This document shows, piece by piece, positions 14,302-61,116 of a DNA stretch of 64,000 bases; the first letter of the stretch is position 1, and each line of letters opens with the position of its first letter. The DNA lies in assembly GCA_020632075.1 (NCBI GenBank), contig JACKGH010000001.1, positions 458,852-522,851 on the forward strand, read 5' to 3'. Made by a program: the position numbers and the translations under genes. Below the pieces are notes generated by a model. The model was not told the origin of the DNA. It ran no database searches and saw only the letters and a program-made list of their open reading frames with translations. Source of the stretch: Candidatus Nomurabacteria bacterium (GTDB lineage Bacteria > Patescibacteriota > Minisyncoccia > Phycocordibacterales > UBA918).

Positions 14302-14365
14302 AGCTAGTTGGCAAGCTCCCCCACCCTACACACATGGACGTGTGTGGGGTGTTTTTAAATGCGAA

Positions 14366-14404
14366 AGAAAAGGCCGGGCGCGAAGCGCCCGGCCTTTTCT
14401 TTTT
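14366..14404. terminator. bidirectional intrinsic terminator downstream of rpoC
   Basis: aagaaaa-ggccgggcgc-gaa-gcgcccggcc-ttttcttttt. Confidence 0.9.
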
Positions 14405-23674: not shown

Positions 23675-23876
23675 TGCTCGTAGCGTAGCACAGAAACAGC
23701 GCGGCGCCCACAAAGTGGGCGCCGCGCTGTTTCTGTTGGAGTGATCTGTTAGATCTTTAGGTTTCCTAGAGATAAAAATTGGATGAAGAGCGAGGAGTCT
23801 AAGAATTTTACGAGAGAGGCGTACCTTGATGTACGTGACCGAGTAAAATTCTGTAACAACGACGCTATTCGCCAAT

Positions 23877-27193: not shown

Positions 27194-27195
27194 AG

Positions 27196-27240
27196 AAAAT
27201 AAAACAGCCGGGCCCCGAAGGGGCCCGGCTGTTTTATTTT
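27196..27240. terminator. bidirectional intrinsic terminator after rnr
   Basis: aaaacagccgggcccc-gaa-ggggcccggctgtttt-atttt (16-bp stem). Confidence 0.9.
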
Positions 27241-28296
27241 CTACCCTCTCTGTGACCGCAATTGCTCTAAAGCCAATGTCCAAGCTTCACCCTCTACAAG
27301 ATACTTTGCTGAAACAGCGCCATAGCCAGATAAATAATCTCCTGCATCAGACGCTCTAGCGAAATCAATGATCGCTGGCACAAGATCGCGACCGCGCGGG
27401 ATCTGATCAGCCGGAACTTGTTTAAAGTAGTATTTTACGGCCTCAGCCAACCTCCCTGCTCCAGCATGATGAGAATCAGCTGCTAATCGAGGCAATATTT
27501 CGTCCTGCAACGTCTGTTCTTCAACCCCATGCTGACGCAGCAAGTCCATTGTTCCCTGGGACTCAAGATGACTAATAAGCTGATCGTATTTTTCTTCTAG
27601 ATGCAACGCTGCTACCCTGATCTGTTCTGCAGGATCTTGATACTTTTTTGGATCACTGCCGTATGATTCCAGTAGCTTCTCGGATACCTGCAGTAAGCCA
27701 GCATACTCACCATTACGACGTGATGGATCAAACCGAGACTCTTTGGCACACATACCGATTAATAGCTCACGAAGCTTCGCCTGTGCCCGCGGCGGGATCC
27801 CTTCTTGCGTCTCTTCATTCCATGCAAAGGTCACCTTATCTCTTAGATAATCAATAAGCGGCACGCCATCAATCTCTAGCTCAGTCGCATTTCGGAGCGT
27901 CTGCTCGACATCAACCGGAGACAGCTTCTCCACTCCCTCAAGCACTTTCTGCTCCAACACACCAGCAACCGACCCGCCATCAACTTCAGCCCAGTTGGCG
28001 TAGCGTTCAGAATCAAAACCACTATCTGCAGCATAGGTCTCTGTCGTATTATGCTGTGCATCTAGCACCAACGGTTCGGCGTCGGGTGCCTGCCCAGAAT
28101 CCTTCACCGGAGTAAATGTCAAACCTGCTACCAACGCCAAAACTTTACGCAGATCACGCTTTTGCTCTGGCGTGTGAGCACCAAACTCCTCTACTGGATC
28201 TATTTCATCATCAACAAACTCATATCCATCAGTCAAACTATAACTTCCATCACTATACTTTTCTGGAGGGTTTAAACTCGGGCGTATTTTTTCCAT
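27241..28296 (-). CDS. hypothetical protein with lytic-transglycosylase (SLT)-like motif
   Basis: 351-aa ORF; GMCAKESRFDPSRRNGEYAGLLQVS resembles the SLT catalytic ES...GLMQ motif; no obvious signal peptide. Confidence 0.5.
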   Translation of the reverse strand: MEKIRPSLNPPEKYSDGSYSLTDGYEFVDDEIDPVEEFGAHTPEQKRDLRKVLALVAGLTFTPVKDSGQAPDAEPLVLDAQHNTTETYAADSGFDSERYANWAEVDGGSVAGVLEQKVLEGVEKLSPVDVEQTLRNATELEIDGVPLIDYLRDKVTFAWNEETQEGIPPRAQAKLRELLIGMCAKESRFDPSRRNGEYAGLLQVSEKLLESYGSDPKKYQDPAEQIRVAALHLEEKYDQLISHLESQGTMDLLRQHGVEEQTLQDEILPRLAADSHHAGAGRLAEAVKYYFKQVPADQIPRGRDLVPAIIDFARASDAGDYLSGYGAVSAKYLVEGEAWTLALEQLRSQRG

Positions 28297-32187: not shown

Positions 32188-32904
32188 CTACTCAGTTTGC
32201 CAACCTTTTGCTTCGATTGCTTTCTCTGCTGCTTGTTGCTCAGCTTCTTGTTTTGAGCGTCCTTTGCCTTCAGCTACCTTCTCCTTACGCAAAAAGACTC
32301 CAACCGTAAACACCCGGTCATGATCTGGGCCTTCCTGACTAACTGTCTCGTAGGTTGGGGTCACCGAAACATGCTCCTGAGCCATCTCTTGGAAGCGGCT
32401 CTTAGCATCTTGCCACAGGCGCTTACGGACGATCTCATCAGTCTTCCCAAAGAGGCGATCAGCAATAAAGTTTTTCGCCGCATCGTAGCCCCTATCCATG
32501 TAAATAGCACCGATGCAGGCTTCAAACGCGTTGGCGAGAATGTACTGGCGGGCGCGTCCGACGTCTTTCGCCTCGCCCTTACTCATCAGCAAATAGTCGT
32601 TTACACCGAGCTGCTCGGACGCGCCCGCCAGTGAAACTGTATTCACCAAAGCTGCCCGCACTGCAGTAAGTTCTCCTTCAGGCTTCTCTGGATATTTATG
32701 AAAGAGGTAATCAGTCACCACGAGCTCCAACACCGCATCACCCAAAAACTCTAGACGTTCATTGTGGTCCCAGGTCGCGTCGCGGTGTTCATTCAAGTAT
32801 GAACGATGTGTAATAGCTGATAACAGTATCTGAATATCAGCAAAAGTAACTCCGAGCAGCTCTTGCAGCTTCTCTAAGTCGGTATCAAGTTTTGTAACTT
32901 CCAT
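32188..32904 (-). CDS. rnc: ribonuclease III
   Basis: 238-aa ORF; RNase III signature ERLEFLGDAVLELVV; C-terminal dsRBD. Confidence 0.92.
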   Translation of the reverse strand: MEVTKLDTDLEKLQELLGVTFADIQILLSAITHRSYLNEHRDATWDHNERLEFLGDAVLELVVTDYLFHKYPEKPEGELTAVRAALVNTVSLAGASEQLGVNDYLLMSKGEAKDVGRARQYILANAFEACIGAIYMDRGYDAAKNFIADRLFGKTDEIVRKRLWQDAKSRFQEMAQEHVSVTPTYETVSQEGPDHDRVFTVGVFLRKEKVAEGKGRSKQEAEQQAAEKAIEAKGWQTE

Positions 32905-35940: not shown

Positions 35941-36471
35941 ATGTATACTGACGAAACGACCAACCTTCCCTCCTTCGAAACAGCCAAGCCCGACGACCTG
36001 GTGTATGAGCTGTTCCACCTGTTCGAAAGAAGCGGACGCTGGTTCGACAACGTCGCACAGCAATGTGAGCGACTACTATGGACCGAGGCTGACCGTGAAG
36101 CCTGGACTAAGGCACAACATGCTATGTCCGAGGAACAACGTGCAGCCGAACAAGCAGCCTATATGGCGACACTCGGCAGCTTCGCTTGGATCTCCGAGCT
36201 CGATGAGTTCGGACTGTGGATGCACACCACCCTTGAGTCAAGAGGTGTCACCATCCACGCATTCCGCCTCGGATACGGGGAACCTGGTCGATCAGACGAC
36301 CCAACGATGTACGTTCTACATCATCCTGACGACAAAGATGATTACACGAAGGTGTATGTCATTCGCCGAGACGTAGATCCAAACTCATCGCTCCGTCGAA
36401 CAATCTGGGTCAACGAACCGATTCAGAAAATGTACGAGTGGTATCTCCAAAGTGAGGATATGGACGTATAG
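35941..36471 (+). CDS. hypothetical protein
   Basis: 176-aa ORF followed by a strong terminator; no recognisable domain. Confidence 0.5.
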   Translation: MYTDETTNLPSFETAKPDDLVYELFHLFERSGRWFDNVAQQCERLLWTEADREAWTKAQHAMSEEQRAAEQAAYMATLGSFAWISELDEFGLWMHTTLESRGVTIHAFRLGYGEPGRSDDPTMYVLHHPDDKDDYTKVYVIRRDVDPNSSLRRTIWVNEPIQKMYEWYLQSEDMDV

Positions 36472-36488
36472 CGTCCAGAACCTCTTCG

Positions 36489-36520
36489 AACACGGCCCAT
36501 GGGCCGTGTTTTTTTGTTTG
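36489..36520 (+). terminator. intrinsic terminator
   Basis: acacggccc-at-gggccgtgt-ttttttg. Confidence 0.85.
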
Positions 36521-36571
36521 AAGTACCCCTTCCAAAAAAGCATTGCGAAGGTTTGTTTCCAGATAGAGCGA

Positions 36572-36731
36572 GCATTCGCGGAAAAATACAATTGTGGAGA
36601 AATGTATATTTTTAATGATCTGGAACAGCAAATTACGACTGTTTGAGCCGTAGGCGAGTTTCGTAATTTGCGTTGTGTAAGAGAATATAAAAATAACAGT
36701 TCGGAGCATTCTTGTATTTTTCCGCGAATGC
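36572..36731. repeat. perfect 20-bp inverted repeat pair (GCATTCGCGGAAAAATACAA / TTGTATTTTTCCGCGAATGC) separated by 120 bp, just upstream of the dnaE promoter
   Basis: Arms 36572-36591 and 36712-36731 are exact reverse complements. Confidence 0.85.
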
Positions 36732-36739
36732 GAGCGAAA

Positions 36740-36748
36740 TGCTATAAT
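36740..36748 (+). promoter_or_regulatory. extended -10 (TGcTATAAT) 9 nt upstream of dnaE ATG; possible leaderless mRNA
   Basis: TGCTATAAT at 36740-36748, ATG at 36758, no SD between. Confidence 0.4.
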
Positions 36749-36757
36749 CACCCCACC

Positions 36758-39700
36758 ATGGCAGAATCCGACCAATCCTACCCACCAATCAAGGCTGACT
36801 TCGTCCACCTGCACGTACATTCAATGTACTCCCTCCTCAATGCCGTCCCGACCCCAAAGGAGCTTGTTAAAGCCGCCAAAGCAGACGGTCAGGATGCTCT
36901 TGCCATCACCGACGCTGGCGCACTCTACGGCGCGATCGACTTCTACAAAGCTTGCACCTACGAAGATGTGAAGCCGATCATCGGCCTCGACGCTTACCTT
37001 GCGCCACGGACTCGTTTTGATAAAGAAATGCAAGACCGGCCCCACTCGCGTCTTGTTCTCCTTTCGAAGACTTTTTCCGGCTACCAAAATCTTATCGAGA
37101 TGGTGACTCGTTCCAATGTCGACGGGTTTTACTACAAACCTCGCCTCGACGACGAGCTCCTTGAAAAACATCACGAGGGACTGATCTGTATCATCCCATC
37201 CTTTGCCGGGGAGATAGCTCAAGCACTCAAAGACAACAATCCCGACAAAGCCGCCGAACGCCTCGATTGGTACAAGAGCCTCTTTGGCGACGACTGCTAT
37301 CTTGAGATCTCCCATCACCCAGAGATCTTCGGCCACCAAGAAAATCAAGAACTCATCAAGAAGCTCGCGAGAGAGACAGACACTCCCCTCGTAGCTGCCC
37401 AAGACATCTACTATATGAAGCCTGGCGATCGGTTGGCGCGTGAGGTGATGGTGAAGATTGGGAGCGGTGGTGTCGTAGACACCACCGCTGATCACGATAC
37501 CGGCGAAGACTTTTCGTTCAAGACGCAAGCAGAGATGAAAGAATGGTTTGCTGATACTCCTGAGGCGATTTCAAATACCGTCAAGATCGCAAATGAATGC
37601 AACGTAAAAATCACCCTTGGCCAGGATGCCTGGATGTTCCCGAAGTACATCATCGAGAGTGGTCGTACACCCGACAACGAACTCCACCATCGCGCCTGGG
37701 AAGGAGTGACCTGGCGCGGTATGGATCCAGAAGACGAGGAACTAAAAGACCGCCTCACCTTCGAGCTCGACGTGATCAAGATGAAGGGCTACGCAACTTA
37801 CTTCCTCGCTGTGGGCGACCTCCTGCGTGAAGCGCGTGAGCGCGGCATCTACACCACCATTCGTGGTTCGGTGGCTGGATCACTCGCCACCTACGTGCTC
37901 GGGATCACCAACGTGGACCCGCTTGAGTACCGCCTCCCCTTCGAGCGTTTCCTCAACCCGGAACGACCATCGGCACCTGATATCGACATGGACTTTGCTG
38001 ATAATCGTCGCGATGAGATCATTTCCTATGCCCGCGAGAAATACGGCTACGACAACGTGGCGCAGATCGGTACCTTTGGAACTATGATGGCGAAAGCGGC
38101 CGTGCGCGACGTGGCGCGAGCCCTTGGTCATAGCTACTCCACCGGTGATCGTATCTCCAAAATGATACCAATGGGGAGCCAAGGATTTGCCATGACCATT
38201 GATCGCGCGATAGACATCGAACCTGAACTCGCCGAGTTGTACAAGAAAGATGCAGAAAGTCGCGAAGTGATCGACCTCGCGAAGCAGATCGAAGGGCGCG
38301 TACGACACCTCGGAGTACACGCGGCTGGTGTAGTGATCGCACCTGAACCCCTCAATAACTACGTTCCGATCCAGATCGACTCCAAGACCGGCAAGCAGAT
38401 CACCCAGTACGAAATGAAGTCTGTGGGTGAAGATGGTGTTGGTCTCCTCAAGTTCGACTTCCTCGGTATCAAAAACCTCGCCATTTTGGCTGACGCTGTA
38501 AAGCGTGTGAAAAAGATCCACAACGTTGACATTGATATTGAAAACATTCCACTTGATGACCCAAAGACCTTCGAGATCCTCGCCTCTGGTCAGACTATGG
38601 GACTTTTCCAGCTCAATGGTTCCGGTATGACTGCGTTCCTTAAGCAGCTGAAGCCGACTACTATTCATGACATCAACGCGATGGTGGCGCTCTATCGTCC
38701 TGGCCCGATGGAAATGATCCCGACGTACATCGAGCGAAAATACAATCCTTCCCTCGTAACCTATCTCGACCCACGCCTCGAGCCAATTCTTGAGCGATCG
38801 TACGGGGTGATCACCTACCAGGATGACGTGATGATGATCTCCATCCAGCTCGCAGGCTACTCTTGGCTCGAGGCTGACATGCTGCGTAAGGCGATGGGTA
38901 AGAAGATCCCTGAACTCATGGAAGAGCAAAAGAAAAAGCTGTTTGCTGGCTTCCTCGAACACGGCCTCTCGCAGGATAAGGCAGATAAGCTCTGGCAGCT
39001 CATTGAACCATTTGCGGCATATGGATTCAACAAAGCGCACGCTGCGTCGTACGGTCGCGTCGCCTACCAAACCGCCTACATGAAAGCCAACTTCCCCGTG
39101 GAGTACATGTCGGCCGTGCTCACCGCTGACTCGGGCGACACCGAAAAGATCTCTGAGATCATTCACGAATGTGAACGTATGGGCGTACCAGTACTTCCAC
39201 CAGACATCAATGAATCCTTTTCCGACTTCTCCGTGGTGCCGGGGAAAAATACCATCCGCTTTGGACTCACCACCATCAAAAACTTCGGTGAAGGCATCGC
39301 TGATGTGATCATCGAAGAACGAAAGAAGAACGGTCCGTTTGCATCCATGCAAGACTTCCTCACCCGCATCCATGACCGAGGACTCAACAAGAAATCCCTC
39401 GAAGCGCTTATCATGACCGGTGCCTTTGATAAGTTCGGTGAACGTGGCGAACTTATTGCCAACCTAGACAATCTCCTCGCCTACAACCGCGAGCAAGTTA
39501 GTGGCAAGGAAACTGGTCAGGACTCGCTCTTCGGCGGCATGGACGAAGTCTCTGGCCTCACTCTCGAACCGGCCGAAGACGCACCAATGGCCCAGAAACT
39601 CCTTTGGGAAAAGGAACTGCTTGGCGTGTACGTGTCCGGCCACCCACTCGACGCAGTGAAGGACGAGGTCGACAAACGACCAAGTATTGAGCAAGTAAAG

Positions 39701-39997
39701 AAGGGCCACCAGGGCACGACCGTTGTGACCACCGGCCTCATCGAGATCGTCAAAGAACTCCTCACCAAAAAGGGTGACAAAATGGCCTTCATCAAGATCG
39801 CCAACCAAACCGACAGTATCGAAACCGTCGCCTTCCCCGAAACCTACAAAGACAATCGTGAGCTCTTCGTGCCAGGCACCTGCGTGGCCATCAAAGGTAA
39901 GTTCAATGTCCGCAATGACGAGCCATCGATTTTGATCGATAAAGTGAAGCGACTTGGGAGTGATGAGATGGTGGGAGAGCCGATTTCTAGTAATTGA
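36758..39997 (+). CDS. dnaE: DNA polymerase III alpha subunit
   Basis: Start at MAESDQSY (the 6-frame ORF begins 30 codons earlier at 36668); PHP domain FVHLHVHSMYSLL; polymerase core through C-terminal OB domain; ~1080 aa. Confidence 0.95.
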   Translation: MAESDQSYPPIKADFVHLHVHSMYSLLNAVPTPKELVKAAKADGQDALAITDAGALYGAIDFYKACTYEDVKPIIGLDAYLAPRTRFDKEMQDRPHSRLVLLSKTFSGYQNLIEMVTRSNVDGFYYKPRLDDELLEKHHEGLICIIPSFAGEIAQALKDNNPDKAAERLDWYKSLFGDDCYLEISHHPEIFGHQENQELIKKLARETDTPLVAAQDIYYMKPGDRLAREVMVKIGSGGVVDTTADHDTGEDFSFKTQAEMKEWFADTPEAISNTVKIANECNVKITLGQDAWMFPKYIIESGRTPDNELHHRAWEGVTWRGMDPEDEELKDRLTFELDVIKMKGYATYFLAVGDLLREARERGIYTTIRGSVAGSLATYVLGITNVDPLEYRLPFERFLNPERPSAPDIDMDFADNRRDEIISYAREKYGYDNVAQIGTFGTMMAKAAVRDVARALGHSYSTGDRISKMIPMGSQGFAMTIDRAIDIEPELAELYKKDAESREVIDLAKQIEGRVRHLGVHAAGVVIAPEPLNNYVPIQIDSKTGKQITQYEMKSVGEDGVGLLKFDFLGIKNLAILADAVKRVKKIHNVDIDIENIPLDDPKTFEILASGQTMGLFQLNGSGMTAFLKQLKPTTIHDINAMVALYRPGPMEMIPTYIERKYNPSLVTYLDPRLEPILERSYGVITYQDDVMMISIQLAGYSWLEADMLRKAMGKKIPELMEEQKKKLFAGFLEHGLSQDKADKLWQLIEPFAAYGFNKAHAASYGRVAYQTAYMKANFPVEYMSAVLTADSGDTEKISEIIHECERMGVPVLPPDINESFSDFSVVPGKNTIRFGLTTIKNFGEGIADVIIEERKKNGPFASMQDFLTRIHDRGLNKKSLEALIMTGAFDKFGERGELIANLDNLLAYNREQVSGKETGQDSLFGGMDEVSGLTLEPAEDAPMAQKLLWEKELLGVYVSGHPLDAVKDEVDKRPSIEQVKKGHQGTTVVTTGLIEIVKELLTKKGDKMAFIKIANQTDSIETVAFPETYKDNRELFVPGTCVAIKGKFNVRNDEPSILIDKVKRLGSDEMVGEPISSN

Positions 39998-40980: not shown

Positions 40981-41353
40981 AAATGAGAAAAGGAGCCTAC
41001 GGCGACTATTTCGAATTTATGCAGGCGCTTCAGCAGATTCGACCTACCAAGGGAGAATATGCTAATAGCGAGCTGCACCAATTTATTAACCAGATTGTTC
41101 CTTTCAGACCTTTTCCAGACACGCATCCTCGCCTCCAGCGGGCTCGGCGCTATGCTCGCTGAGTTTCGCACTTTCGTGCGACCGAGCAAATCGAGCTGCG
41201 CAATGTCTGTCAAAAGTCTGAAAGGAACAATCACCACATCCGAGAGCCAGAGAATTATTGCTGTCTAGCGAAACATCTGCAGCGACAATACCCGGAGCGA
41301 AGCCGTTTCGTCTGATAGTAATAATTCTCTGGCTCTAAGAAAAATTCACAATT

Positions 41354-54564: not shown

Positions 54565-54591
54565 AGATGGAAACTAATTAGAAATATGTCG

Positions 54592-54600
54592 CAATCCTAA
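54592..54600 (-). promoter_or_regulatory. TTAGGATTG motif (copy C) 28 nt upstream of pheS start
   Basis: Minus strand reads gcgcggcTTAGGATTGcgacatatttctaattagtttccatctATG; the AATATTTTCTAC block occurs further upstream. Confidence 0.4.
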
Positions 54601-54770
54601 GCCGCGCAAAATTTGAGTAGAAAATATTGCAGACGACTGAGTCATACTTGAGTATGACGAAGAAGGATAAAATATTTTATGCCAAATTTTGCGCGGCGTC
54701 GATGCGAAATGATTTGTAAAAGATAACTTCATATCAGATTTCTTATTAGTTTCCCAAGTGTAGCACGCGT

Positions 54771-57621: not shown

Positions 57622-57645
57622 GCCACCTTTGCTCAGTTGGTAGAG
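57622..57645 (+). other. tRNA-like 5' fragment: 23/24 nt identical to the 5' end of the downstream tRNA-Thr
   Basis: gccacctttgctcagttggtagag versus gccaccttagctcagttggtagag at 57741; no matching 3' half found before the complete tRNA. Confidence 0.6.
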
Positions 57646-57740
57646 TTGAAATAGTCTGGGAGATTATTTCAAAGTTTTGTCACAAAACCGTTGCTCTGAC
57701 CTCTGAAACATTGCGGGCAGTTGGGCACAAAATTAAATAC

Positions 57741-57813
57741 GCCACCTTAGCTCAGTTGGTAGAGCAACGGTTTTGTAAACCGTGGGTCGTCAGTTCGAGT
57801 CTGACAGGTGGCT
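57741..57813 (+). tRNA. tRNA-Thr (anticodon UGU); CCA not encoded
   Basis: Cloverleaf read directly: acceptor GCCACCT/AGGTGGC, D-arm GCTCAGTTGGTAGAGC, anticodon arm ACGGT-TTTGTAA-ACCGT, T-arm GTCAG-TTCGAGT-CTGAC, discriminator U. Confidence 0.9.
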
Positions 57814-57823
57814 CAGAGTACAT

Positions 57824-57863
57824 AAAAGAAAGAGCCGGGCGCTTCGCGCCCGGCTCTTTCTTT
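57824..57863. terminator. bidirectional intrinsic terminator after tRNA-Thr
   Basis: aaaagaaag-agccgggcgc-ttcg-gcgcccggct-ctttcttt. Confidence 0.9.
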
Positions 57864-60920: not shown

Positions 60921-61116
60921 GTGCGCTCAAGTGTACTTATTATCGTAGCAATAGCAAGACTCCTTACTCATTAAGTCGCGCAATGAAACGCTGTCCTGAA
61001 GACACGAATCAAGTTCTCCGCTCGCGACGCGAACCCGTCAAGAGACTCTGTCTCTTGACTGAACCGCTGCTCCGCGAGGTCTTCCGGACAGCGTTTCAAT
61101 CGCGCTCGCAGCCAGA

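What the first reader, a model, noticed from the sequence alone, without database searches (positions are those of the whole stretch)
36566..36760. Perfect 20-bp inverted repeats spaced 120 bp apart, immediately upstream of a TGnTATAAT box and a probably leaderless dnaE
GCATTCGCGGAAAAATACAA (36572-36591) and its exact reverse complement (36712-36731) bracket a 120-bp AT-rich segment. The right arm ends 8 nt before an extended -10 (36740-36748). That -10 is only 9 nt from the dnaE ATG, with no SD. The pair could be a two-site operator that loops the dnaE promoter, a MITE-like insertion, or a long stem in an upstream transcript.
Basis: seen in the sequence. Interest (0 to 1): 0.5.

Follow-up and report, generated by a model that had tools for sequence, protein, structure and literature searches.

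The report
Conserved hairpin element beside dnaE promoter
The perfect inverted repeat is real: it is the outer stem of a 172-base hairpin conserved upstream of the DNA polymerase gene in several related uncultured (CPR) bacteria, with stems that change sequence yet stay paired, so it is probably a functional structured element and not a jumping-gene scar or a pair of repressor sites.

Summary
The arms at 36572-36591 and 36712-36731 are 20/20 complementary, and TGCTATAAT lies 9 nt before the dnaE ATG at 36758.

The arms are the outer stem of a 172-nt rod-like hairpin (36566-36737). Five other Kaiserbacteria-like assemblies carry the same element at the same spot, 170-172 nt long. Across the six copies:
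- 39 of 60 base pairs show compensatory double changes, and 95.5% of cells are paired.
- Fourfold-degenerate sites in dnaE are only 38% identical, so neutral sequence is nearly saturated.
- Loop motifs are conserved and purine-rich on the dnaE-sense strand only.
- The flanking GAGCGA "direct repeat" is conserved and forms the base of the stem, so it is not a target-site duplication.

The 20-mer has no other copy in the window. It gave only 5 single hits in unrelated phyla among GTDB representative genomes, and a 24-mer of the arm gave none in JGI metagenomes.

The leaderless reading holds. TGnTATAMT sits 6-9 nt before the dnaE ATG in every close relative (DnaE N-terminus 73% identical or more), and about a dozen other window genes have a −10 at the same distance from their ATG.

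Other hairpin families with conserved cores and variable paired arms sit upstream of thrS, pheS and a release-factor gene. In relatives they sometimes replace this one at dnaE.

Best reading: a new, lineage-specific structured element, probably RNA. Its function is not shown. The MITE and operator-pair readings are not supported.

The parts
36488..36511 (+). Intrinsic terminator of the upstream 176-aa ORF (10-bp stem, then a T-run). It lies before the element and is not part of it.
   Evidence: terminator scan; sequence
36520..36565 (+). Upstream flank conserved with relative L012 (CCTTCCAAAAnAGCnTTGCGnAGG..TGTTTC). It may be the remnant of a second tandem copy, but this was not significant.
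   Evidence: alignment score 64.5 against 25.3 +/- 4.0 for shuffles (0 of 500). Similarity to the half copies in L051 and L053 was not significant (32-33 of 500).
36566..36571 (+). Left GAGCGA, the base of the hairpin. It pairs with the right GAGCGA through G-C and C-G pairs flanked by tandem G.A.
   Evidence: Invariant in 6 of 6 copies. Pairs 3-173, 4-172 and 7-169 in the consensus fold.
36572..36591 (+). It contains the invariant A-tract.
   Evidence: helix 1 has 22 pairs, 14 with compensatory changes, 96.9% paired
36592..36599 (+). Conserved 5' internal-loop motif TTGTGGAG (family consensus YTGYGGAG).
   Evidence: alignment; structure
36600..36627 (+). 5' strands of the middle helices. The sequence varies but the pairs covary.
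   Evidence: in helices 3-5, 16 of 17 pairs have compensatory changes
36628..36671 (+). Inner stem (11-bp perfect repeat) closing the conserved apical region CTGTTTGAGCCGTAGGCGAGTT.
   Evidence: repeat I6; invariant CTGT.TGAG and GCGAGTTT
36672..36702 (+). 3' strands of the middle helices.
36703..36711 (+). Conserved 3' internal-loop motif GGAGCATTC (family consensus AGCATTMT).
   Evidence: AGCATT invariant
36712..36731 (+). Its invariant T-tract falls roughly at the -35 position of the dnaE promoter.
   Evidence: the position relative to the -10 is read
36732..36737 (+). Right GAGCGA, the base of the hairpin. It is also present next to the -10 in relatives that carry other hairpin types. In two hairpin-less relatives the corresponding sequence is AAGCGA or GCGAGA.
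36740..36748 (+). Extended -10 promoter element TGCTATAAT.
   Evidence: Conserved as TGnTATAMT at 6-9 nt from the ATG in all close relatives.
36758..39997 (+). dnaE (DNA polymerase III alpha, 1079 aa). Leaderless, or with a leader of about 3 nt.
   Evidence: 100% identity to a Candidatus Kaiserbacteria DnaE; PHP, DNA_pol3_alpha and related domains; N-terminus MAES... conserved

Best explanation
The two 20-mers are the outer helix of a 172-nt hairpin element, which I call F1 (36566-36737). It has been inherited at the upstream edge of the dnaE promoter in a group of Kaiserbacteria-like CPR bacteria.

Shown:
- Selection keeps the helices paired while their sequence turns over.
- Selection also keeps a set of purine-rich unpaired motifs: GAGCGA at the base, YTGYGGAG, CTGTYTGAG...GCGAGTTT and AGCATTMT. 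These motifs are all on the dnaE-sense strand.

Inferred:
- The element acts as a folded single strand, most likely RNA of the sense strand. That RNA would be made when transcription enters from upstream.
- A factor recognises the GAG/GCGAG loops, or RNase III cuts the 20-bp perfect stem. RNase III is encoded 4 kb away.
- The effect is to delimit or process such transcripts. dnaE would then be expressed from its own extended -10 promoter as a leaderless mRNA, or one with a leader of about 3 nt.

F1 is one of several hairpin families in this lineage. All have a conserved core and variable, perfectly paired arms. They occupy the 5' flanks of housekeeping genes.
For: 1. Orthologous copies. Five further assemblies carry the element: L009, L012, L030, L051 and L053. 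These come from JGI, ENA and NCBI. Each copy is 170-172 nt from GAGCGA to GAGCGA and abuts TGnTATAMT.
2. Covariation. Of 60 consensus pairs, 95.5% of cells are paired and 39 pairs show changes on both sides. Shuffles give 17.5 +/- 2.7 such pairs, with 0 of 500 reaching 39. Slid controls give 8-12 such pairs and 37-48% pairing.
3. Constraint against a neutral yardstick. Fourfold-degenerate sites of dnaE in the same six genomes are 38% identical. Unpaired element columns are 70% identical and paired columns 61%.
4. Strand asymmetry. GCGAG/AGCGA occurs 4-8 times on the sense strand of each copy and never on the antisense strand. Unpaired positions are 64-72% purine on the sense strand against 30-34% on the antisense. 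The sense strand folds more stably in 5 of 6 copies.
5. Same design in other families. The family upstream of thrS (F2) has 20 of 28 pairs with compensatory changes. thrS has no proximal -10, so those copies must lie in a transcribed leader. Across 25 element copies from all the hairpin families, the strand with purine-rich loops is also the more stable one in most copies. That strand is sense to the downstream gene in roughly three quarters of copies (my tally).
6. Modularity. The -10 and ATG region stays unpaired in the consensus fold that includes the flanks.
7. RNase III is encoded at 32188-32904.
Against: - No transcript data exist.
- No conserved promoter was found upstream of the element.
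- In the window, L030 and L051 a canonical terminator lies between the upstream gene and the element, so read-through would be limited.
- In L012 and L053 the upstream gene is divergent.
- G.U pairs are no commoner on the sense strand than on the antisense strand: 16 against 16 in the minimum-energy folds. The outer stems are almost purely Watson-Crick. This pattern is less typical of RNA than of DNA palindromes.
- The element is dispensable. About half of the related lineages lack any hairpin at this site, and the closest relative (L006/L007, DnaE 90% identical) carries a different hairpin there.
Confidence: 0.45

Rival explanations
1. DNA-level palindrome. The element works, or merely persists, as DNA: either a cruciform or a hairpin in transiently single-stranded DNA. 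Its right arm overlies the -35/UP region of the dnaE promoter, so extrusion would switch or tune the promoter. Arm-to-arm template switching could keep the arms perfect without selection.
For: - The arms are almost purely Watson-Crick. G.U and A.C cells are equally frequent.
- The base of the hairpin sits at a fixed 0-2 nt from the TG of the -10 in all six copies.
- The only invariant stretch of the outer stem is A4/T4, and the T-tract falls at about -35.
- Two other families (F3, F5) occur in both orientations in different genomes, as expected for recombination between inverted arms.
- The DNA fold is strong: -41 kcal/mol, z = -8.2.
Against: - A 22-nt non-palindromic apical loop and several internal loops make extrusion from duplex DNA kinetically unfavourable (established knowledge of cruciforms).
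- The conserved unpaired motifs are strongly strand-asymmetric. A symmetric DNA mechanism does not predict that.
- Template switching cannot explain 70% identity in the loops when neutral sites are at 38%.
- An extended -10 promoter needs little from the -35 region.
- All six F1 copies keep one orientation. The model scores 142-184 bits on the sense strand against at most 48 on the antisense.
Confidence: 0.2
2. Selfish or neutral hairpin repeat. The element is a resident copy of a low-copy, structure-dependent mobile repeat, like REP/REPIN, ERIC or Correia elements. Such repeats would tend to land next to promoters, perhaps at GAGCGA, and would have no host function.
For: - The dnaE site shows presence/absence and family replacement: families A, B, C/F2 and D, or nothing.
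- L051 and L053 carry tandem full plus half copies, each bounded by GAGCGA.
- The F2 core lies upstream of thrS in some genomes and upstream of dnaE in others. The F5 core lies upstream of a release-factor gene in the window but between dnaE and thrS in L012, L050 and L052.
Against: - F1 was found only at dnaE in 311 kb of window plus related loci.
- The arm has no other copy.
- The arms, which would be the transposase-binding ends of a MITE, are the least conserved part.
- Orthologous resident copies keep their loops and pairing far above neutral expectation.
- No transposase, integrase or RAYT gene lies among about 40 window proteins.
Confidence: 0.15
3. Independent small RNA made from the antisense strand. 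ATGnTATAAT also reads as TAnCAT on the other strand, giving a divergent -10. A transcript from it would start at about the right-hand base of the hairpin.
For: - TAnCAT is present in all six F1 copies and in the type B copies (read from the sequences).
- Bidirectional promoters arising from -10 symmetry are known in bacteria (my own knowledge; not checked in the library).
- Terminator-like hairpins or T-runs follow the element on the minus strand in L009, L012, L013 and L030.
Against: - On the antisense strand the conserved loops are pyrimidine-rich, and the GAGCGA base would give C.U mismatches.
- The antisense strand folds less stably in 5 of 6 copies.
- The window itself has no consistent terminator on that strand.
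Confidence: 0.08
4. Two-site operator. A dimeric or tetrameric repressor binds the two identical 20-bp sites and loops out the 120 bp between them.
For: Two identical sites lie 140 bp apart centre to centre, next to a promoter.
Against: - The site sequence is not conserved between orthologous copies; only the complementarity is.
- The interior is itself paired and covaries, which a looping spacer does not need.
Confidence: 0.02

Closest known systems
ERIC/IRU and Correia (NEMIS) intergenic hairpin repeats
   Same: These are imperfect palindromes of 100-170 nt in intergenic regions next to gene starts. When transcribed they fold into long hairpins. Correia hairpins are RNase III substrates and can affect neighbouring promoters or mRNA stability (my own knowledge).
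   Different: Those families are high-copy, and their terminal inverted repeats and target duplication (TA for Correia) are conserved. Here the arms are the variable part and the loops are conserved. The copy number appears to be one, and GAGCGA is part of the stem.
REP/REPIN elements mobilised by RAYT transposases
   Same: Hairpin-forming intergenic elements in which the two arms evolve in a correlated way. They are long-lived, vertically inherited residents of the chromosome.
   Different: REPINs are built from two conserved REP 20-25-mers with a GTAG head, occur in tens to hundreds of copies, and accompany a RAYT gene. None of these features was seen here, although only about 6% of the genome could be read.
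Integron attC sites
   Same: Hairpins of 57-141 nt whose structure, not sequence, is conserved. They act as a folded single strand, and different cassettes succeed one another at one site.
   Different: attC sites are defined by inverse core sites (RYYYAAC / GTTRRRY), extrahelical bases and an integrase. Here the flanks are a direct GAGCGA repeat, the loops are conserved in sequence, and no integrase lies nearby.
RNase III processing hairpins (phage T7 R sites, rRNA operon stems, the E. coli rnc leader)
   Same: A long, nearly perfect stem of at least 20 bp, interrupted by conserved internal loops, lying between transcription units.
   Different: Cleavage has not been shown here, and no sequence similarity exists.
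TIGR-Tas stem-loop arrays (PMC12045711)
   Same: They are reported from parasitic bacteria and phages. Each unit has variable but consistently palindromic stems around conserved short motifs.
   Different: TIGR units are short, arranged in tandem arrays next to a Nop-domain Tas gene, and carry box C/D motifs and 8-12-nt spacers. Here there is no Nop-domain protein in the window. CUGA is present in only 3 of 6 copies and is base-paired. The element is a single orthologous copy.
6S RNA
   Same: A rod-like RNA of about 180 nt, conserved in structure more than in sequence.
   Different: 6S RNA has a large central bubble, which this element lacks. No Rfam match was found even at E = 10.

Membership tests
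MITE (transposase-mobilised miniature inverted-repeat element) | Terminal inverted repeats conserved among the copies of a family | tested here: not met
   The arms differ at most positions between the six orthologous copies. The 20-mer has no further copy in the window.
MITE (transposase-mobilised miniature inverted-repeat element) | Target-site duplication created on insertion | tested here: not met
   GAGCGA does flank the element. However, it is invariant in all six copies, base-pairs as the foot of the stem, and bounds the tandem half copies. A duplication scar would decay.
MITE (transposase-mobilised miniature inverted-repeat element) | Many dispersed copies in the genome | tested here: inconclusive
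   Covariance model R1 found F1 only at dnaE in 311 kb. The GTDB scan gave 5 single hits in unrelated phyla, which I take to be chance. The JGI metagenome scan gave none. The rest of this 1.0-Mb genome could not be read.
REP/REPIN | Two inverted conserved REP units with a GTAG head, plus a RAYT gene | tested here: not met
   No conserved arm sequence. No Y1 transposase among about 40 window proteins. The genome-wide check is not possible with these tools.
Any Rfam RNA family (including 6S, T-box, ribozymes) | A covariance-model match | tested here: not met
   The gathering-threshold scan of the window finds only tRNA-Thr. The permissive scan of 36300-36900 gives only chance-level hits of at most 19 bits.
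Intrinsic terminator | G+C-rich stem immediately followed by a U-tract | tested here: not met
   No T-run follows the hairpin on either strand. The internal T5 is base-paired and is preceded by A/U-rich pairs.
Inverton (invertible promoter switch) | Inverted repeats flanking a promoter, both orientations observed, a recombinase present | tested here: not met
   The promoter lies outside the repeats. All six copies have one orientation. No recombinase is in the window.
Operator pair / DNA looping | The protein-binding site sequence is conserved across species | tested here: not met
   The arm sequence is not conserved; only the complementarity is.
Integron attC | R''/R' inverse core sites (RYYYAAC...GTTRRRY) and an IntI integrase | tested here: not met
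   The core sites are absent from the sequence. No integrase is in the window.
Conserved structured element (evolutionary definition) | Compensatory base-pair changes well above controls, together with conserved unpaired nucleotides | tested here: met
   39 of 60 pairs are compensatory and 95.5% of cells are paired; 0 of 500 shuffles reach this. Loops are 70% identical against 38% at neutral sites.
Leaderless gene with an extended -10 promoter | A -10 element at 6-9 nt from the start codon, no Shine-Dalgarno sequence, conserved in relatives | tested here: met
   for dnaE in the relatives; for about a dozen other window genes. The transcription start itself cannot be tested with these tools.

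The most novel reading that the evidence does not exclude
These CPR bacteria carry an undescribed class of single-strand-acting hairpin cassettes. Each has a conserved core with purine-rich GAG/GCGAG loops, clamped by fast-evolving but perfectly paired arms. The cassettes dock at the 5' edges of housekeeping genes (dnaE, thrS, pheS, a release-factor gene), many of them leaderless. They succeed one another at the same site and are read by a dedicated, still unknown protein. That system could be regulatory, or it could be a structure-specific mobilisation system.
Probability: 0.3. Interest if true: 0.8.

Novelty: new variant of a known kind. Interest (0 to 1): 0.6.

Why it matters
Almost nothing is known about gene regulation in CPR/Patescibacteria. 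They are uncultured and have tiny genomes with little non-coding DNA. Three points make this worth following.

- A 170-nt element kept under structural selection next to the replicative polymerase gene is costly in a 1-Mb genome. Sister families lie in front of thrS, pheS and a release-factor gene. That cost argues for a function.
- It gives a concrete, testable candidate for a new structured RNA (or DNA) class that is not in Rfam.
- It documents that this lineage runs largely on extended -10, leaderless promoters. This bears on gene-start annotation: NCBI starts this DnaE 10 codons too late, at an ATC codon.

If the element is only a selfish hairpin repeat, it is still an unusual one, because the arms vary and the loops are conserved.

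Tried and rejected
- MITE or dispersed repeat. I searched the window with 3 mismatches, GTDB representative genomes with the exact 20-mer (five single hits in unrelated phyla, which I take to be chance) and JGI metagenomes with a 24-mer (none). The window's own genome is not in either collection, so within-genome copy number outside the 64 kb stays untested.
- Target-site duplication. I first read GAGCGA...GAGCGA as a duplication. I rejected this once it proved invariant across species and paired in the consensus fold.
- Rfam. Nothing was found.
- TIGR-Tas or box C/D-like guide RNA (a lead from PMC12045711). Rejected because there is no Nop-domain protein, no array and no consistent C/D boxes.
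- Conserved partner gene. The small ORFs upstream of dnaE differ between relatives and have no Pfam hits.
- Leader peptide. A 14-codon ORF lies inside the hairpin, but its start is not conserved in L009 or L012 (read).
- DnaA box. TGTGGAGAA matches 8 of 9 positions in three copies only, so it is not conserved.
- Hairpin sequestering the dnaE start. The consensus fold that includes the flanks shows no pairing with the -10 or ATG region.
- Relic of a second copy in the window's upstream flank. Not significant.
- Strand assignment from G.U against A.C counts. Uninformative at 16 against 16. Loop composition and folding energies did give a strand signal.
- Literature. Searches for CPR leaderless genes or hairpin repeats found nothing relevant.
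Full report
**1. The observation**

The sequence is as described. GCATTCGCGGAAAAATACAA (36572-36591) and its exact reverse complement (36712-36731) are 20/20 complementary with 120 nt between them. TGCTATAAT lies at 36740-36748, 8 nt after the right arm. Nine nt (CACCCCACC) separate it from the ATG at 36758, and there is no Shine-Dalgarno sequence.

Allowing 3 mismatches, the 20-mer occurs only as these two arms in 64 kb. Shuffles give a mean of 0.02 matches.

- The interior is largely self-complementary too, with an inner perfect 11-bp repeat at 36628-36638 / 36661-36671. The 172 nt from 36566 to 36737 therefore fold as one rod. The RNA fold is -67.2 kcal/mol with z = -7.7 on the + strand, and -58.4 on the - strand. 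The DNA fold is -41 kcal/mol with z = -8.2.
- GAGCGA flanks both arms.
- The element is conserved in relatives.

**2. Organism and setting**

The downstream ORF is DnaE. It is 100% identical to a Candidatus Kaiserbacteria (CPR/Patescibacteria) protein on a 1.0-Mb contig. The window is core chromosome: sigma-70, dnaG, rpoB/C-sized ORFs, RNase R, RNase III, nusB, L32, rnhB, dnaE, thrS, gyrB, pheST, tsf, rpsB and a release-factor gene. There is no transposase, integrase or Nop-domain protein.

A canonical terminator of the upstream ORF sits at 36488-36511.

**3. The promoter and leaderless reading**

I examined close relatives with DnaE or its N-terminus 73-90% identical. These came from NCBI, JGI, ENA and Logan assemblies. 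In every one, TGnTATAMT lies 6-9 nt upstream of the dnaE ATG, whether or not a hairpin is present.

In the window itself, about a dozen other genes have TGnTAnnnT at 6 or 9 nt before their first ATG. They include bacA, an AddA-like helicase, S16, RNase R, rnhB and L32. A few more, such as dnaG, have a -10 hexamer at the same distance without the TG. The 9-nt class ends in CCAC(T/C), which suggests a 3-nt leader. The transcription start itself remains unmapped.

**4. Not unique to this genome, and not a recent insertion**

Five further assemblies (L009, L012, L030, L051, L053) carry a homologous element in the same orientation at the same place. Each is 170-172 nt from GAGCGA to GAGCGA, and TG of the -10 follows after 0-2 nt.

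The arm sequences differ:

| Copy | Left arm |
|---|---|
| window | GCATTCGCGGAAAAATACAA |
| L009 | GGGCTTGCTGGAAAAAGTCA |
| L012 | GTACCTGCAGAAAATCTCA |
| L030 | GGCTTCACTTAAAAACATCA |

Yet each is complementary to its own partner arm.

- RNAalifold gives 60 consensus pairs, 39 of them with compensatory double changes.
- The explicit count gives 95.5% of cells paired. In shuffles the mean is 17.5 +/- 2.7 compensatory pairs, and 0 of 500 shuffles reach 39. Sliding the partner by 1-3 columns gives 8-12 such pairs and 37-48% pairing.
- As a neutral yardstick, fourfold-degenerate sites in the first 700 codons of dnaE are only 38% identical among the six genomes. Unpaired columns of the element are 70% identical and paired columns 61%.

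So the loops are under purifying selection for sequence, and the helices for pairing.

The conserved unpaired motifs are:
- GAGCGA at both ends;
- YTGYGGAG in the 5' internal loop;
- CTGTYTGAG...(A/G)GCGAGTTT at the apex;
- AGCATTMT in the 3' internal loop.

The two GAGCGA copies pair with each other through G-C and C-G pairs flanked by tandem G.A. They are invariant. In L051 and L053 they also bound a truncated extra copy, giving GAGCGA-half-GAGCGA-full-GAGCGA. They are therefore part of the structure and not a target-site duplication.

**5. Is it a dispersed repeat?**

- A covariance model of the six copies (R1) was searched over 311 kb of window plus related loci. It finds only the six dnaE-upstream copies (142-184 bits) and a weak 22-bit hit in L009.
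- In L009 that hit is a miniature hairpin with the same loop motifs, followed by GAGCGA and a TATGCT -10.
- The exact 20-mer gives five single hits, which I take to be chance, in unrelated phyla among GTDB representatives.
- A 24-mer gives none in JGI metagenomes.
- The rest of this genome could not be read, so copy number outside the window is untested.

**6. A wider phenomenon**

The window holds other long hairpins just upstream of gene starts:

| Coordinates | Family | Downstream gene |
|---|---|---|
| 41093-41232 | F3 | thrS |
| 41243-41336 | F2 | thrS |
| 54569-54754 | F4 | pheS |
| 60984-61098 | F5 | a release-factor gene |

- The F2 core (TGTCTAGCGAAACATCTGCAG...CGAAGCCGTTGAGTCTGA) recurs upstream of thrS in L008 and L049, and upstream of dnaE in L048 and L006/L007. 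The arms are different each time but always perfectly paired. In F2, 20 of 28 pairs are compensatory.
- F3 is 85-88% identical in L006, L012 and L050 but inverted there.
- The F5 core lies between dnaE and thrS in L012, L050 and L052, in both orientations.
- At the dnaE site itself, relatives carry F1, an F2-like hairpin (L006/L007, L048), a third type that is also GAGCGA-flanked (L013, L021), a fourth whose arm runs into the -10 (L020, L022), or nothing. Where there is nothing, there is often a plain terminator (L008, L047, L049, L050, L052 and others).

The design is common to all families: a conserved core with variable paired arms, placed at the 5' edge of a gene. Individual copies are gained, lost and replaced.

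**7. Which strand, and RNA or DNA?**

For RNA of the sense strand:
- GCGAG/AGCGA occurs 4-8 times per F1 copy on the sense strand and never on the antisense strand.
- Unpaired positions are 64-72% purine on the sense strand against 30-34% on the antisense.
- The sense strand is the more stable fold in 5 of 6 copies.
- Across 25 copies of all families, the purine-loop strand is usually also the more stable one. It is usually sense to the downstream gene.
- thrS has no proximal -10, so its hairpins must lie in a transcribed leader.
- The base and internal loops contain tandem G.A, a common RNA motif.
- RNase III, which cuts stems of about 20 bp or more, is encoded at 32188-32904.

Against RNA:
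- No conserved promoter precedes F1.
- A terminator lies upstream of the element in three of the six genomes, and the upstream gene is divergent in two others.
- G.U pairs are no more frequent on one strand than on the other (16 against 16).
- The arms are almost purely Watson-Crick.

For a DNA-level role:
- The spacing to the -10 is fixed.
- The only invariant part of the outer stem is A4/T4, and the T-tract falls at about -35.

Against cruciform extrusion: the 22-nt asymmetric apex and the internal loops.

The consensus fold that includes the flanks shows the -10 and ATG region unpaired, so the hairpin is a separate module.

**8. Verdict**

The leaderless promoter is supported. The operator-pair and MITE readings are not supported. 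The "long stem" reading is closest to the evidence.

The element is a conserved, structure-constrained hairpin of a kind not in Rfam. It belongs to a lineage-specific set of hairpin elements.

I commit, at moderate confidence, to a sense-strand RNA module that is recognised at its GAG-rich loops and/or cut by RNase III. It would delimit transcripts entering the dnaE promoter region. A DNA-level palindrome effect on the promoter and a selfish low-copy hairpin repeat are the main rivals. Function is inferred, not shown. Transcript mapping and a whole-genome scan would decide.

Noticed in passing
window 32544-32632 (inside rnc, 32188-32904, minus strand): The RNase III gene carries an 18-bp perfect inverted repeat inside its coding sequence (RNA fold -47.6 kcal/mol). 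Relatives L051 and L053 have a nearly identical protein in this stretch (GRARQ conserved) but lack the perfect repeat. It may be a self-target for RNase III autoregulation.
   Followed up: partly
window 57622-57814: tRNA-Thr(UGU) at 57741-57814 is preceded by a near-identical (23 of 24) direct copy of its first 24 nt at 57622-57645. An inverted copy of its nt 12-36 lies at 57682-57706, so the upstream region could pair with the 5' half of the tRNA.
   Followed up: partly
window 41093-41336: Two different hairpin elements lie in tandem just before thrS. The first (41093-41232) is 85-88% identical to elements in L006, L012 and L050 but is inverted relative to thrS. thrS itself has no nearby -10 and no Shine-Dalgarno sequence.
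   Followed up: partly
window 54569-54754: A 186-nt hairpin ends 4 nt before the pheS ATG (54564, minus strand). Its proximal arm contains a -10-like TAGTTT 6 nt from the ATG. No homologue was found in the loci fetched.
   Followed up: no
window 60984-61098; L012 6957-7039; L050 7738-7805; L052 6230-6297: The hairpin upstream of the release-factor gene (60920, minus strand) shares its core with elements that lie between dnaE and thrS in three relatives, in both orientations. The core is 89% identical over 83 nt to the L012 copy.
   Followed up: partly
window, e.g. starts at 2012-, 5935-, 12485-, 24862-, 25247+, 28296-, 34330-, 35333-, 63361-: An extended -10 (TGnTAnnnT) lies 6 or 9 nt before the ATG at about a dozen genes, and few genes have a Shine-Dalgarno sequence. 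At a few starts, such as 12485, the -10 hexamer is there without the TG. The 9-nt class ends in CCAC(T/C), which suggests a 3-nt leader. Leaderless expression appears to be the default in this genome.
   Followed up: partly
window 36758 against 36788; proteins P0001 and P0003: NCBI's DnaE entries for this genome and a close relative start 10 codons downstream at an ATC codon (MKADF...). JGI, ENA and Logan calls start at the conserved ATG (MAES...). The automatic ORF list also offers a spurious TTG start at 36668, inside the hairpin.
   Followed up: yes
L016, L017, L020-L022, L025, L026 (upstream of dnaE): More distant relatives share a conserved hairpin-plus-tail motif, GCCCCGG-loop-CCGGGGCGTCACTACGTCTGCT, just upstream of the dnaE promoter or of its hairpin. 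It resembles a terminator, but the tail is conserved.
   Followed up: no
L009 597-679: A miniature hairpin carries the same loop motifs as F1 (CTGTGGA / GTAGCATTCTG), followed by GAGCGA, TATGCT and an ATG-TAA. It lies at a different locus, upstream of a PMSR/SelR gene.
   Followed up: partly
L051 9723-9812 and L053 9668-9758: Truncated left halves of an F1-type element lie in tandem before the full copy. The L051 half resembles the left half of the full L009 copy more than it resembles its own neighbour. This suggests an ancestral two-copy array.
   Followed up: partly
window 23690-23736, 27194-27242, 14364-14402, 57825-57863: The ordinary terminators of this genome are perfect 18-23-bp palindromes with 3-nt loops. 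In at least some (for example 27194-27242) an A-rich outer arm mirrors the T-run, which suggests they could act in both directions.
   Followed up: no
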